This document shows positions 26,540-39,876 of a DNA stretch of 64,000 nt, piece after piece. The translations under genes were made by a program, and so were the position numbers. The first letter of the stretch is position 1. Every line of letters starts with the position of its first letter. The stretch is taken from the sequence record NC_028840.1; one strand, 5' to 3'. Source of the DNA: Escherichia phage slur09. Under the pieces are notes generated by a model. It was not told where the DNA came from. It was given only the letters and a program-made list of their open reading frames with translations, and did no database searches.

Positions 26540-26935
26540 TTAGTCATTTAATCCCGGAACATATATCCCAACACGGTTTAATTGTTCTTTAGCTTCTTTG
26601 AGAATATCTGGAGTGTACTCCCAAATATCATCTTCCACCTGTAAAAGATGGGGCGAACAACCATCATCCGGCACACGACATATGGCCAAACCACGTGGAT
26701 GGAACAAAGAGAAGTTTAGGGCAACAATCAATCCCATAGCAGACAATTCATTCCAATCCAATTCCCATCCCCCGGCGTATCCAGACAGGAAAACGCCAAT
26801 GCATGGATCATCTGTTTGCTGCTCAGGAAAAGTGAAGGAGGCTTGTCTTACCCCCCCCCCCAACCAACGTTGTAGCAGCTTCTCCGCACGTTTCACCAAA
26901 CTAGGATCAATCTGACGCCAATATACTTGTTCCAT
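26540..26935 (-). CDS. hypothetical protein, tandem paralog 1; contains an in-frame G11 homopolymer
   Basis: 131 aa; related to ORF 26945..27373 (shared ...CIG...GW.EL...MGL..ALN..LF.P...VPGL pattern). Confidence 0.5.
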   Translation of the reverse strand: MEQVYWRQIDPSLVKRAEKLLQRWLGGGVRQASFTFPEQQTDDPCIGVFLSGYAGGWELDWNELSAMGLIVALNFSLFHPRGLAICRVPDDGCSPHLLQVEDDIWEYTPDILKEAKEQLNRVGIYVPGLND

Positions 26936-26944
26936 TCTGCCTCC

Positions 26945-27373
26945 TTAAGCAGTTAAACCTGGGATCATATATCCGAAACGTCGAAGTTTTTGGATACCAT
27001 CATTCACTTCTTCTGGTGAGTAAGACCAACCGTAACGTTCATTAACTTGAAAACCAGGAGATTCACTAGTTTTATAGTTAACAACAAGGCGATGCTTAGC
27101 AGGCATAAACAGCTTATAGTTTAACGCAAAAACTAAGCCCATTTCGTCTAACTCTTTCCAGCCCACAATCTCTTCAAGACCATCCTCTACCTGCACAATT
27201 AAACCAATACAGGGGGCCTCATCAATATCATCTTTAAAAGCAAAGGAGATTTCGTTATTCTCACACCATATTTTCAAAGAGTTAATAGCCTCATTATATA
27301 GGCTAGCTGGGAGAGTACGCCAAAAGTTAACCAAAATTGGATTAGCTTCTTTAGAGAATACATTATTGAACAT
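26945..27373 (-). CDS. hypothetical protein, tandem paralog 2
   Basis: 142 aa; paralogous to 26540..26935. Confidence 0.5.
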   Translation of the reverse strand: MFNNVFSKEANPILVNFWRTLPASLYNEAINSLKIWCENNEISFAFKDDIDEAPCIGLIVQVEDGLEEIVGWKELDEMGLVFALNYKLFMPAKHRLVVNYKTSESPGFQVNERYGWSYSPEEVNDGIQKLRRFGYMIPGLTA

Positions 27374-27375
27374 AC

Positions 27376-27882
27376 TTACACCTTAAATTGTTGTAGAGCT
27401 TTACACATTTCAAGATCTGGACTAAATTCTAGCATATAGCTAACAGCTTTTAAATCTTGAAGATTTATCCCAGTCCTACCGTTGACTATAACCGTTGGAT
27501 ACTGATACATCATAGCACCCGCATCATCAAGCACACACCAATGTTTGAGCTTATGCTTTTCAACGAAGCGAAGAACAGAATTACCCCTAGATAATCCACC
27601 ACCAGTAAAATCCGTTGTACCAAGAAAACGATCGATAAGACCTAATCCGGTCATAATCTGAACGTTCTCCATCTCATTTCTGACAGAGAACCAAGATGAT
27701 ACTCCAACAATCATTATCGGAGAAGGACGAATAAAGTCCTGAAAAGCCTTGAGAAGCGGTTTGAAAACCCAGTCACTTCCAAAGAAAATCTTTTCATCAT
27801 CAGGTGCATGATGGTGGGAGATGCTCGAATTAAGCACCCCATCAATGTCTAGAAAAATAATTGGAGTATTACTTATTTCCAT
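27376..27882 (-). CDS. HAD-superfamily hydrolase-like protein
   Basis: 168 aa; N-terminal IIFLDIDGVLN motif. Confidence 0.5.
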   Translation of the reverse strand: MEISNTPIIFLDIDGVLNSSISHHHAPDDEKIFFGSDWVFKPLLKAFQDFIRPSPIMIVGVSSWFSVRNEMENVQIMTGLGLIDRFLGTTDFTGGGLSRGNSVLRFVEKHKLKHWCVLDDAGAMMYQYPTVIVNGRTGINLQDLKAVSYMLEFSPDLEMCKALQQFKV

Positions 27883-28051: not shown

Positions 28052-28227
28052 ATCTGTTTCTCCTCATCTCCAGAGGATAACCATATGTTCTCTGTGGTAT
28101 AGATAATTTTATATGTGTATCCCAACCGTTCTCTTACACTAGGAAACCTGTAGGCAAACCTATAACACCAAGTGCCAGACTCAGTTATAAAAATATCCCA
28201 TTCATTATTTCTTGCTTCTCGACACAT
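28042..28227 (-). CDS. hypothetical small protein
   Basis: ORF track, 61 aa. Confidence 0.35.
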   Translation of the reverse strand: MCREARNNEWDIFITESGTWCYRFAYRFPSVRERLGYTYKIIYTTENIWLSSGDEEKQICL

Positions 28228-29023
28228 AAGGTCTACCCTCTAAATGAGCTTCTACACGAGCAATAAAATCAGGATCACTGAAAGCATCTACCGCACCTTT
28301 ACTCCAGTAAGGGATACCACGTTCTTCCAGCTGGTACATCTCATTACGAGTCATACCTTGATAGCCCAGTTCCGCCGCTAGGGCACTATCATAGTAGTTA
28401 ACAACCATAAGTTTCGCAGCAGTCAAATTAAGAACAGGAAATAATTCCCAGTAGAAGTTAATTACTTGGTTAGAGCAACCAACCACAACGATCATATCTT
28501 GACTGGTAATACCATCAAAAACATTGTACATTTCTGCGTATGTAGGAGCATGCTCTCCAAAGAAGATTACATTAGGTTTAACCCATTTATAATTATCTGG
28601 ATCAATAGAATTGTACCCTACATCAATAATCCGTTTATTGCTACTATTGTAGCTATCAGCTACAACAACCTCTTTTAAATATCCGTGAATGTGCAGAATG
28701 TCACTATGTGGAACGCCAGCACGCTCAATAAGGTCATCAACGTTGGTAGTCAAGTTTACTACTTGACCTGGATATTGTTTATACCATTCACCGATACGCA
28801 AATGTGCAAGATTGGGTTCAACAGTTTTTAGCTCTTCACGACGCTTGTTGTAAAACATATGGGTTTTATGATAAAAATTACCACGAAAGGCATGAATATT
28901 ACACACTTCTTCTAGATCATAATCATCCCATAATGCTTTACCATTAGCAGTATCAGTACGGAAGGCTCGTACACCACTTTCAACACTCAAACCTGCACCG
29001 CTAATAATAATTAATCTACGCAT
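28205..29023 (-). CDS. Sir2-family (sirtuin-like) NAD-dependent protein, no Zn ribbon
   Basis: 272 aa; SGAGLSVESGVRAFR, catalytic-type HIHGYL, VIFFGE and VVVGCS motifs; no CxxC pairs. Confidence 0.65.
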   Translation of the reverse strand: MRRLIIISGAGLSVESGVRAFRTDTANGKALWDDYDLEEVCNIHAFRGNFYHKTHMFYNKRREELKTVEPNLAHLRIGEWYKQYPGQVVNLTTNVDDLIERAGVPHSDILHIHGYLKEVVVADSYNSSNKRIIDVGYNSIDPDNYKWVKPNVIFFGEHAPTYAEMYNVFDGITSQDMIVVVGCSNQVINFYWELFPVLNLTAAKLMVVNYYDSALAAELGYQGMTRNEMYQLEERGIPYWSKGAVDAFSDPDFIARVEAHLEGRPYVSRSKK

Positions 29024-39052: not shown

Positions 39053-39081
39053 TTGCTTAAAGCCCTCTAATTTAGTATAAT
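39053..39081 (+). promoter_or_regulatory. T5-type promoter, -10 region enclosed by an inverted repeat (AAGCCCTC / GAGGGCTT)
   Basis: TTGCTT-N17-TATAAT; 8-bp inverted repeat arms at about 39060 and 39092. Confidence 0.55.
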
Positions 39082-39108: not shown

Positions 39109-39393
39109 ATGCGGATTTATAACTCAAATTCATTAGGATTTAAACCATTGAGAAAACGTGCACAATCACCTCGTCAAATAAGAAAGGCTAATATTGGTGA
39201 GCCAGAAACACGTCTTCCACCCCCTCCAGAACAACGTTTAGTTTATCTGGACGAAGAATTAGCTGAACGCGAAAGAAAAGCTCAAGAAGAGATTGAGCGT
39301 AAGAAAATGTGTACTGCTCCAGCCTACTCCAAAGGGGCTTATCAGTATATCTATACAGCCGAGGAGGCTAAAGATGCGGGGCGTAAAAAATGA
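39109..39393 (+). CDS. hypothetical protein
   Basis: ORF track, 94 aa. Confidence 0.5.
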   Translation: MRIYNSNSLGFKPLRKRAQSPRQIRKANIGEPETRLPPPPEQRLVYLDEELAERERKAQEEIERKKMCTAPAYSKGAYQYIYTAEEAKDAGRKK

Positions 39394-39839
39394 AGATTAC
39401 TGAATTTAAAGGTGCTTATAGTTTCTTATCAAACTTTTATTTATCACCAATTACTTTCGAATATCTAAATGAAATATGGCATGCTGATACTGTAGAACAT
39501 GCTTTTCAGGCTATGAAATCCGACCAAAAAGATGATGTAGCTCATGTACTGCGCTCCCTAAATGCAGGTGTTGCCAAACGTAGAGGACGTAAATTAACTC
39601 TGCGCTCTGACTGGGATAAGGTAAAAGATGATGTAATGCTAGAGCTTTTACGGTTAAAGTTTGCAATCCCTGATTTGAGAGACAAACTGTTAGCAACAAA
39701 AAATGCAACTTTGATCGAAGGAAATACCTGGGGAGATACATATTGGGGTGTTTGCCGAGGCATCGGGGATAATACTTTAGGAGTTCTTTTGATGCAGGTA
39801 AGGTCTGAAATTAAAAGAAGCTTACAGTTAATAAATTAA
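39390..39839 (+). CDS. NADAR-domain (YbiA/DUF1768-like) protein
   Basis: 149 aa; YSFLSNFY, EHAFQAMK and GNTWGD...YWGV motifs resemble the NADAR family. Confidence 0.6.
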   Translation: MKITEFKGAYSFLSNFYLSPITFEYLNEIWHADTVEHAFQAMKSDQKDDVAHVLRSLNAGVAKRRGRKLTLRSDWDKVKDDVMLELLRLKFAIPDLRDKLLATKNATLIEGNTWGDTYWGVCRGIGDNTLGVLLMQVRSEIKRSLQLIN

Positions 39840-39847
39840 AAATTCAT

Positions 39848-39876
39848 TTGCTAAACGCTTCAAATTCTCGTATAAT
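39848..39876 (+). promoter_or_regulatory. T5-type promoter
   Basis: TTGCTA-N17-TATAAT with downstream CATAAATT. Confidence 0.65.

What the first reader, a model, noticed from the sequence alone, without database searches (positions are those of the whole stretch)
39390..39839. NADAR-domain protein in the early nucleotide-metabolism operon
The YSFLSNFY, EHAFQAMK and GNTWGD motifs match the NADAR (YbiA-like) family, members of which hydrolyse ADP-ribose adducts including ADP-ribosylated guanine produced by DarT-type toxins. A phage copy could be an anti-DarTG or anti-ADP-ribosylation factor, or act in riboflavin/NAD salvage.
Basis: partly seen in the sequence, partly recalled or inferred. Interest (0 to 1): 0.55.

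Follow-up and report, generated by a model that had tools for sequence, protein, structure and literature searches.

The report
Known anti-DarTG1 NADAR gene (AdfN)

Summary
The ORF at 39390..39839 (+), 149 aa, is real and carries all three quoted motifs. It is a clear NADAR domain: Pfam PF08719 scores 78.9 bits against a cutoff of 35.1. An AlphaFold model (pLDDT 97.8) matches only E. coli YbiA and the ADP-ribose-bound Phytophthora NADAR. The window is a T5-like Tequintavirus, 98% identical to phage HK6. The protein is 148/149 identical to bas32_0066 and bas33_0070, each the only NADAR found in its genome. These are AdfN-Bas32 of Johannesman et al. (Nat Commun 2025). In that study, ectopic expression neutralised the DarT1 toxin and restored plaquing of RB69, T5 and Bas25 on DarTG1 hosts, but did not rescue T5 on DarTG2. 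The anti-DarTG reading is therefore supported and narrowed to DarTG1 (guanine-ADPr). New details here are minor. The gene is a clean one-ORF accessory cassette present in about 20% of T5-like genomes and absent from T5. It is translationally coupled to the T5.090 homologue and sits between two early promoters. It is a minimal, Glu-type (YbiA-like) NADAR, unrelated at sequence level to T4 AdfN and lacking DarG1's N-terminal extension. A natural in-frame deletion allele exists. Already known; low interest.

The parts
39390..39839 (+). adfN: a 149-aa minimal NADAR-domain ADP-ribosylglycohydrolase, orthologue of AdfN-Bas32. Predicted ADP-ribose-binding and catalytic residues are E36, K43, K63, G66, R67, W75, E110, D116 and W119.
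   Evidence: ORF. Pfam NADAR 78.9 bits. 148/149 identical to bas32_0066 and bas33_0070. AF2 pLDDT 97.8 with fold matches to 2b3w and 8bau only. Residue mapping comes from the HMMER alignments and the residue roles in PMC11543638. E36, K43, E110, D116 and W119 are invariant in 40 homologues.
39109..39393 (+). Upstream 94-aa ORF (T5.090 homologue, no Pfam family). Its stop overlaps the adfN start (ATGA at 39390-39393), so adfN is probably translationally coupled to it. It is not a dedicated partner, because it is retained in phages that lack adfN.
   Evidence: Searches show the overlap. One search finds no Pfam hit. Searches show a 92-aa version in DaisyDussoix, ECOP18, Seafire and T5, all without adfN.
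39053..39081 (+). Sigma-70-type early promoter (TTGCTT, 17 nt, TATAAT, with an A/T-rich upstream stretch) that would drive the two-gene unit T5.090-homologue + adfN.
   Evidence: Read directly from the sequence. T5's record annotates a promoter at the equivalent place between rnh and T5.090. The consensus scan did not list it, because only 3 of 6 bases match in the -35 hexamer.
39848..39876 (+). Conserved downstream promoter (TTGCTA, 17 nt, TATAAT), homologous to T5 promoter P-H207. It marks the right-hand boundary of the adfN cassette and drives the next gene (DUF7022, 39915..40430).
   Evidence: 10 of 12 match. One search shows it invariant in adfN+ and adfN- phages. One search shows the T5 annotation 'promoter P-H 207' between T5.090 and T5.089.

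Best explanation
The gene is adfN, a phage-encoded 'orphan antitoxin'. It encodes a minimal NADAR-fold N-glycosidase that binds the ADP-ribose attached to the N2 of guanine in DNA and hydrolyses the ribose-base bond. It is expressed early, from a T5-type early promoter and coupled to the preceding small ORF. The host DarT1 toxin ADP-ribosylates phage DNA during infection, and this enzyme strips those adducts off so that replication can proceed on DarTG1-carrying hosts. It does not act on the thymidine adducts made by DarT2. Shown here: gene, fold, conserved active site, one-residue difference from the tested protein, and accessory-cassette anatomy. Shown in the literature for the one-residue-different protein: DarT1 neutralisation and rescue of three phages on DarTG1 hosts, with no rescue on DarTG2. 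Inferred: direct glycohydrolase chemistry for this particular protein (by analogy with other NADARs assayed in vitro), early timing, and necessity in the native phage.
For: The protein is 148/149 identical to bas33_0070 (A9T) and to bas32_0066 (K104E), and sits at the same locus. An HMM scan of the whole Bas32 genome and the whole window finds exactly one NADAR gene in each, so AdfN-Bas32 must be this orthologue. PMC11825919 reports that AdfN-Bas32 neutralises DarT1 in uninfected E. coli. It also restores RB69, T5 and Bas25 to full titre on DarTG1 hosts and gives no rescue of T5 on DarTG2. NADAR membership. Fold: pLDDT 97.8, TMq 0.82 to YbiA and 0.77 to ADPr-bound PnNADAR. The positions equivalent to PnNADAR E43/K50/K75/G78/R79/W89/E125/D130/W133 are E36/K43/K63/G66/R67/W75/E110/D116/W119. 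Most of these are invariant or at least 90% conserved in 40 homologues. T5 lacks the gene and is reported to be DarTG1-sensitive. The patchy distribution as a single-gene cassette is typical of counter-defence genes: 91 of 440 T5-like records carry the full region and 94 records carry a protein at least 95% identical. Relatives in Lachnospiraceae sit among the Macro, DUF3990/ART-like, LPD11 and YodL payload genes of mobile elements.
Against: The published evidence that I could read is from ectopic expression. I found no deletion of the gene in Bas32/Bas33, no DarTG1 plaquing data for those phages, and no in vitro assay of this particular protein in the main text. No supplement text was held. 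E. coli YbiA shares the Glu-type active site and is the closest solved relative, yet it does not rescue cells from DarT1 (PMC11125620). Sequence class alone would therefore not have predicted the activity. The window protein differs by one residue from each tested allele, and neither change is at a conserved position. The paper calls the Bas32 and Bas33 proteins identical, whereas the RefSeq records differ at two residues.
Confidence: 0.9

Rival explanations
1. It is a broader nucleic-acid ADP-ribose eraser. Besides DarT1 adducts on DNA guanine, it would remove cytidine-ADPr and RNA guanine-ADPr, and so protect the phage against other ADP-ribosyltransferase toxins (pierisin/ScARP-like, YarT-like). 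DarTG1 would be only one of its targets.
For: The diagnostic active-site residue is Glu (E110), as in YbiA-type and 'NADAR'-type enzymes. PMC12945103 reports that NADAR- and YbiA-family members remove C-ADPr from DNA and RNA, whereas DarG1s and T4 AdfN cannot. Unlike T4 AdfN, AdfN-Bas32 works without other phage factors and on several unrelated phages.
Against: No data exist for this protein on C-ADPr or RNA substrates. No such toxin is known to restrict T5-like phages. This reading extends the best explanation and does not replace it.
Confidence: 0.3
2. It is a YbiA-like metabolite N-glycosidase that clears reactive riboflavin-pathway intermediates, or acts in NAD/ADP-ribose salvage, as part of the phage's nucleotide-metabolism module.
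For: The closest solved relative is E. coli YbiA (E = 3.5e-15; TMq 0.82). TIGR02464 'riboflavin biosynthesis intermediates N-glycosidase' scores 66.5 bits. The gene lies among nrdAB, frd, thy and rnh.
Against: The TIGR02464 score is below its 73.7-bit cutoff. There are no rib or NAD-salvage genes nearby. The gene is missing from about 80% of T5-like phages that keep the whole nucleotide-metabolism block, so it is not part of that module's function. The anti-DarT1 phenotype is demonstrated.
Confidence: 0.05
3. It reverses or tunes ADP-ribosylation carried out by the phage itself, for example by the Sir2-family protein encoded about 10 kb away.
For: A Sir2-family gene lies at 28205..29023 (-) (PF02146, 88.7 bits), and T5's record annotates its homologue as 'deacetylase, ADP-ribosylase'.
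Against: T5 and most relatives keep the Sir2 gene but lack the NADAR, so the two are not coupled. They lie on opposite strands in different transcription units. Sir2 enzymes are not known to ADP-ribosylate guanine.
Confidence: 0.03

Closest known systems
AdfN-Bas32 (bas32_0066 / bas33_0070), anti-DarT factor NADAR of T5-like BASEL phages (Johannesman et al., Nat Commun 2025, PMC11825919)
   Same: 148/149 residues identical to each. Same locus between the T5.090 homologue and the P-H207-type promoter, same length, and the only NADAR in the genome. It is the same gene.
   Different: One substitution relative to each allele (A9 versus T9 in Bas33; K104 versus E104 in Bas32). Neither is at a conserved or catalytic position.
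AdfN-T4 (gp30.3, Pfam PF08010 Phage_30_3)
   Same: Same job (phage orphan NADAR that reverses DarT1 guanine ADP-ribosylation), similar size (152 aa) and the same superfamily. My NADAR HMM detects gp30.3 weakly (19.1 bits, E = 6.8e-5).
   Different: No pairwise similarity (BLASTP E = 1.1) and a different Pfam family. The subfamily-diagnostic residue is His in T4-type phage NADARs and Glu here. AdfN-T4 cannot neutralise DarT1 outside T-even infection, whereas AdfN-Bas32 can. The two appear to have been recruited independently.
DarG1 (DarT1-associated NADAR antitoxin, BC4488 subfamily; E. coli C7 and G. lovleyi)
   Same: Same substrate and chemistry (guanine-ADPr hydrolysis), and both neutralise DarT1 in vivo. 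Both conserve the Glu and Lys equivalent to C7 E88 and K95 (E36 and K43 here).
   Different: DarG1 is about 230 aa with a basic N-terminal extension proposed to bind ssDNA, uses Asp at the diagnostic position, and is encoded next to darT. This protein is 149 aa with the domain starting at residue 9, has Glu110, is an orphan in a phage, and gives no DarG hit in PADLOC.
E. coli YbiA (PDB 2b3w), riboflavin-intermediate N-glycosidase / YbiA subfamily
   Same: Closest solved structure (37% identity, TMq 0.82). Same minimal fold without extensions and the same Glu-type active site.
   Different: YbiA hydrolyses G-ADPr in vitro but does not protect cells from DarT1, whereas AdfN-Bas32 does. This protein is below the TIGR02464 cutoff. 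It was not captured from the host gene, since the closest cellular relatives are only 44-53% identical and lie in other phyla.

Membership tests
NADAR superfamily (Pfam PF08719) | Profile score above the curated gathering threshold over the whole domain | tested here: met
   78.9 bits against 35.1; residues 9-142 cover profile positions 9-163 of 163.
NADAR superfamily (Pfam PF08719) | YbiA-like fold | tested here: met
   AF2 pLDDT 97.8 and pTM 0.91. The only significant PDB matches are 2b3w YbiA (TMq 0.82) and 8bau PnNADAR-ADPr (TMq 0.77).
NADAR superfamily (Pfam PF08719) | Conserved ADP-ribose-binding/catalytic residues (PnNADAR E43, K50, R79, W89, D130, W133) | tested here: met
   The equivalents are E36, K43, R67, W75, D116 and W119, from the alignments and the residue roles. 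E36, K43, D116 and W119 are invariant and W75 is at least 90% conserved in 40 homologues.
AdfN-Bas32 orthologous group (T5-like phage anti-DarTG1 NADAR) | Near-identity to, and synteny with, the experimentally tested protein | tested here: met
   148/149 identical to bas32_0066 and bas33_0070, with the same flanking genes. It is the only NADAR in the Bas32 genome and in the window.
AdfN-Bas32 orthologous group (T5-like phage anti-DarTG1 NADAR) | Neutralises DarT1 and rescues phages on DarTG1 hosts but not on DarTG2 hosts | not testable with these tools
   Reported for AdfN-Bas32 in PMC11825919. Not tested for this exact allele.
YbiA subfamily / riboflavin-intermediate N-glycosidase (TIGR02464) | Glu at the position of PnNADAR E125 | tested here: met
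   E110 aligns with E125 of 8bau and the equivalent Glu of YbiA, and is invariant in homologues.
YbiA subfamily / riboflavin-intermediate N-glycosidase (TIGR02464) | Score above the NCBIfam equivalog-domain cutoff | tested here: not met
   66.5 bits against a cutoff of 73.7.
DarG1 / BC4488 subfamily (DarT1-linked antitoxin NADAR) | Asp at the diagnostic position (E. coli C7 D171) | tested here: not met
   The residue is Glu110, not Asp.
DarG1 / BC4488 subfamily (DarT1-linked antitoxin NADAR) | [quoted passage not shown] | tested here: not met
   The protein is 149 aa and the domain starts at residue 9. The neighbours are the T5.090 homologue and a DUF7022 gene, with no ART. PADLOC gives no DarG hit.
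T4-type phage NADAR (Pfam PF08010 Phage_30_3) | Match to PF08010, with His at the diagnostic position | tested here: not met
   No PF08010 hit. BLASTP against T4 gp30.3 gives E = 1.1. The diagnostic residue is Glu.

The most novel reading that the evidence does not exclude
This minimal Glu-type phage NADAR may be a broad-spectrum nucleic-acid ADP-ribose eraser. Besides DarT1 guanine adducts, it would remove cytidine-ADPr and RNA adducts, giving T5-like phages protection against ADP-ribosyltransferase defences other than DarTG1. It would also show what lets a bare YbiA-like core, without DarG1's DNA-binding extension, work as an in vivo antitoxin when E. coli YbiA cannot.
Probability: 0.25. Interest if true: 0.4.

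Novelty: already known. Interest (0 to 1): 0.15.

Why it matters
This is a correct call on a real counter-defence gene, but the function was published in 2025 for a protein that differs by one residue. The residual value is practical. Public records of this gene are mostly labelled 'hypothetical protein', 'swarming motility protein' or 'GTP cyclohydrolase II', and they could be re-annotated as adfN. Presence or absence of this 450-bp cassette should predict which T5-like therapeutic or environmental phages can grow on DarTG1-carrying E. coli and Salmonella. Comparing this protein with YbiA (same active-site type, opposite in vivo result) offers a compact system for asking what makes a NADAR an effective antitoxin.

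Tried and rejected
1. Upstream 94-aa ORF as a dedicated partner. Rejected: a 92-aa version is kept in T5, DaisyDussoix, ECOP18 and Seafire, all of which lack adfN.
2. Capture from the host's ybiA. Rejected: only 37% identity to YbiA, and the best cellular relatives are 44-53% identical and lie in unrelated phyla.
3. Recent horizontal arrival visible in base composition. Not seen: GC is 0.37-0.39 against 0.33-0.46 in the flanks.
4. A recurring neighbour in cellular homologues that would suggest another role. All-against-all clustering of ORFs within 2.5 kb in 80 loci gave no universal partner. Only a Lachnospiraceae subgroup had repeated neighbours, and those were mobile-element payload genes.
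5. Antisense ORFs inside the gene (39511..39741 and 39542..39763, minus strand). There is no evidence for them; they are treated as chance ORFs.
6. DarG membership through PADLOC. Only a weak PDC-M42C hit at 27.7 bits.
7. Confirming the AdfN-Bas32 accession from the paper's supplement. No supplement text is held. This was replaced by a whole-genome HMM scan of Bas32.
8. HIDEN-SEQ preprint as a source of native-phage evidence. It covers only T4 adfN/adfM, not T5-like phages.

Full report
**Observation.** An ATG-to-TAA ORF lies exactly at 39390..39839 on the + strand and encodes 149 aa. It contains YSFLSNFY (residues 10-17), EHAFQAMK (36-43) and GNTWGD (111-116). Profile searches leave no doubt about the family. 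Pfam NADAR (PF08719) scores 78.9 bits against a gathering cutoff of 35.1 and covers almost the whole model. PHROG 1017 gives E = 8e-45. phmmer against PDB sequences finds E. coli YbiA (2b3w, E = 3.5e-15) and the Phytophthora nicotianae NADAR (8bau, E = 6.7e-7). An AlphaFold2 model built on 40 homologues has pLDDT 97.8 and pTM 0.91. Its only significant Foldseek matches in the PDB are those same two structures, with TMq 0.82 and 0.77.

**Genome and context.** The window is a T5-like phage (Demerecviridae, Tequintavirus). Five kilobases around the gene are 98.2% identical to Escherichia phage HK6, and about 450 T5-like records match the region. The gene lies in a co-directional block of phoH, nrdA, nrdB, frd, thy and rnh, which corresponds to T5.098-T5.087. 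By established knowledge of T5 this is the early region, and T5's record marks the well-known early promoter P-H207 here. 'Operon' is too strong, however, because T5's annotation places promoters every one to three genes. In the window, a TTGCTT-17-TATAAT promoter at 39053..39081 sits where T5 annotates one. It is followed by a Shine-Dalgarno sequence and a 94-aa ORF (39109..39393, the T5.090 homologue, no Pfam hit). The stop codon of that ORF overlaps the NADAR start codon (ATGA). Directly after the NADAR stop comes the conserved TTGCTA-17-TATAAT promoter at 39848..39876, the P-H207 homologue, which drives the next gene (DUF7022, 39915..40430).

**Identity with a characterised protein.** A literature search led to Johannesman, Carlson and LeRoux, Nat Commun 2025 (PMC11825919; preprint PMC11257639). 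They name T4 gp30.3 'anti-DarT factor NADAR' (AdfN). They also report a distinct NADAR in the T5-like BASEL phages Bas32 (IrisVonRoten) and Bas33 (HildyBeyeler), which they call AdfN-Bas32. Expressed ectopically, AdfN-Bas32 neutralised the DarT1 toxin in uninfected E. coli. It restored RB69, T5 and Bas25 to full titre on DarTG1 hosts and did not rescue T5 from DarTG2, which modifies thymidine.

I fetched both phage loci. The window protein is 148/149 identical to bas33_0070 (A9T) and to bas32_0066 (K104E), with identical flanking genes. An HMM built from my homologue alignment finds exactly one NADAR gene in the complete Bas32 genome (bas32_0066) and exactly one in the window. AdfN-Bas32 can therefore only be this orthologue. 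The finding is thus an already characterised gene.

**Mechanism.** Schuller et al. 2023 (PMC11543638) defined the residues that hold ADP-ribose and catalyse guanine-ADPr hydrolysis. In PnNADAR numbering these are E43, K50, K75, G78, R79, W89, E125, D130 and W133, with C7 DarG1 equivalents E88, K95, K115 and D171. From the HMMER alignments, the equivalents in this protein are E36, K43, K63, G66, R67, W75, E110, D116 and W119. E36, K43, E110, D116 and W119 are invariant, and K63, G66 and W75 are at least 90% conserved, across 40 homologues of 46-59% identity.

The most likely mechanism is therefore as follows. The enzyme is made early in infection, binds ADP-ribose attached to guanine N2 in phage DNA, cleaves the glycosidic bond, and so undoes DarT1's block on replication. 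The chemistry for this particular protein is inferred. The published evidence I could read for it is in vivo and from ectopic expression. I found no knockout in Bas32/Bas33 and no DarTG1 plating data for those phages, and no supplement text was held.

**Position within the NADAR superfamily.** The subfamily-diagnostic residue is Glu in YbiA-type proteins, Asp in DarG1/BC4488-type proteins and His in T4-type phage NADARs. Here it is Glu110. The protein is a bare core: 149 aa, with the domain starting at residue 9 and no N-terminal DNA-binding extension like that of DarG1. It gives no DarG hit in PADLOC. T4 gp30.3 belongs to a different Pfam family (PF08010) and shows no pairwise similarity to it (E = 1.1), although my NADAR HMM detects gp30.3 weakly (19.1 bits). 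This supports the paper's view that phages recruited NADARs independently.

The protein scores below NCBIfam's cutoff for the riboflavin N-glycosidase domain (66.5 against 73.7 bits). E. coli YbiA has the same active-site type and hydrolyses G-ADPr in vitro, yet it does not protect cells from DarT1 (PMC11125620). What makes this core-only NADAR an effective antitoxin remains unexplained. YbiA- and NADAR-type enzymes, but not DarG1 or T4 AdfN, also remove cytidine-ADPr (PMC12945103). A wider substrate range for this protein is therefore possible but untested.

**Distribution and anatomy (small additions to the literature).**
- The gene is accessory. Of 440 T5-like records matching the rnh-to-DUF7022 stretch, 91 carry the full region, and 94 records encode a protein at least 95% identical.
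- Most of the remaining records match in two pieces with a span about 445 nt shorter. Alignment with DaisyDussoix (Bas31), ECOP18 and Seafire shows a clean one-ORF presence/absence between the small upstream ORF and the conserved promoter. The last ~45 nt of the upstream ORF have also diverged.
- T5 itself has the empty site, which matches its reported DarTG1 sensitivity.
- An Epseptimavirus, UTK0009, carries a 59.7%-identical NADAR one slot upstream, between rnh and the small ORF. This looks like a second, independent placement.
- A 117-aa allele lacking residues 51-82 is present at the same locus in three ~107-109-kb T5-like contigs. The deletion lies between two 13-nt direct repeats at 39527..39539 and 39623..39635 and removes K63, G66, R67 and W75. 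It is probably a natural loss-of-function allele.
- Base composition of the gene matches its flanks.

**Origin.** The closest cellular relatives are 44-53% identical and are scattered over Lachnospiraceae, Planctomycetota, Pseudomonadales, Myxococcales, Deinococcus and one Pacearchaeota genome. None is enterobacterial. Clustering of their neighbours shows no universal partner. In one Lachnospiraceae subgroup the NADAR sits beside LPD11, YodL-like, Macro and DUF3990/ART-PolyVal-like genes. That is the payload typical of conjugative elements and phages, and it fits a conflict-related role for this clade.

**Verdict.** The novelty class is 'already known'. Interest is low for discovery purposes. 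The remaining open points are necessity in the native phage, direct biochemistry, the breadth of substrates, and why this minimal NADAR succeeds in vivo where YbiA fails.

Noticed in passing
window 39527..39539 and 39623..39635; L091:1501-1854: A natural 117-aa in-frame deletion allele of adfN lacks residues 51-82. The deletion lies between two 13-nt direct repeats (aaaagatgatgta, both encoding KDDV). It occurs at the same locus in three ~107-109-kb T5-like contigs and removes K63, G66, R67 and W75, so it is probably inactive.
   Followed up: partly
L007:2989-3438 (Salmonella phage vB_SenS_UTK0009): A second NADAR allele, 59.7% identical and also 149 aa, sits one gene slot upstream (between rnh and the 92-aa ORF) in an Epseptimavirus. 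This suggests independent insertion of related cassettes in the same region.
   Followed up: partly
window 39915..40430 (+): This 171-aa DUF7022 protein (255 bits) is labelled 'swarming motility protein' in ECOP18, ESCO40 and SE11-type records, although it is not a NADAR. The YbiA label has slipped onto the neighbouring gene, even in phages that lack adfN. Public labels on adfN itself vary: hypothetical protein, swarming motility protein, GTP cyclohydrolase II, N-glycosidase and DUF1768.
   Followed up: partly
window 28205..29023 (-) and 27376..27882 (-): The phage encodes a Sir2-family protein (PF02146, 88.7 bits). The nearby 168-aa gene, annotated 'Sir2 NAD-dependent deacetylase' in HK6 and T5 (T5.105), is actually a HAD_SAK_2 domain (PF18143, 73.1 bits; the HAD domain of 'Swiss army knife' RNA-repair proteins). 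Both are also present in adfN-lacking T5.
   Followed up: partly
window 26540..26935 (-) and 26945..27373 (-): Two adjacent paralogous genes each carry two copies of DUF7415 (99 and 121 bits). Their function is unknown.
   Followed up: no
window 41015..41716 (+): This 233-aa protein is annotated 'metallopeptidase' in some records and 'exonuclease' in others. Pfam supports an Rv2179c-like 3'-5' exoribonuclease domain (32.7 bits against a cutoff of 27).
   Followed up: no
L002:3001-3447 and L003:2887-3333: The paper states that Bas32 and Bas33 encode identical NADARs, but the RefSeq records differ at two residues (position 9 A/T and position 104 K/E). The window protein has A9 and K104, like HK6.
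   Followed up: yes
L022-L025, L045, L047, L053 (Lachnospiraceae/Clostridia genomes): NADAR relatives of 47-49% identity sit beside LPD11, YodL-like, Macro-domain and DUF3990/DUF3791 (weak ART-PolyVal) genes. This looks like an ADP-ribose-centred anti-defence payload of conjugative elements or prophages.
   Followed up: partly
public records OR848833.1 and others (H26; organism counts): Short records labelled 'Listeria phage' and 'Campylobacter phage' carry sequence 98-100% identical to this Escherichia/Salmonella T5-like region. They are probably mislabelled or contaminant fragments.
   Followed up: no
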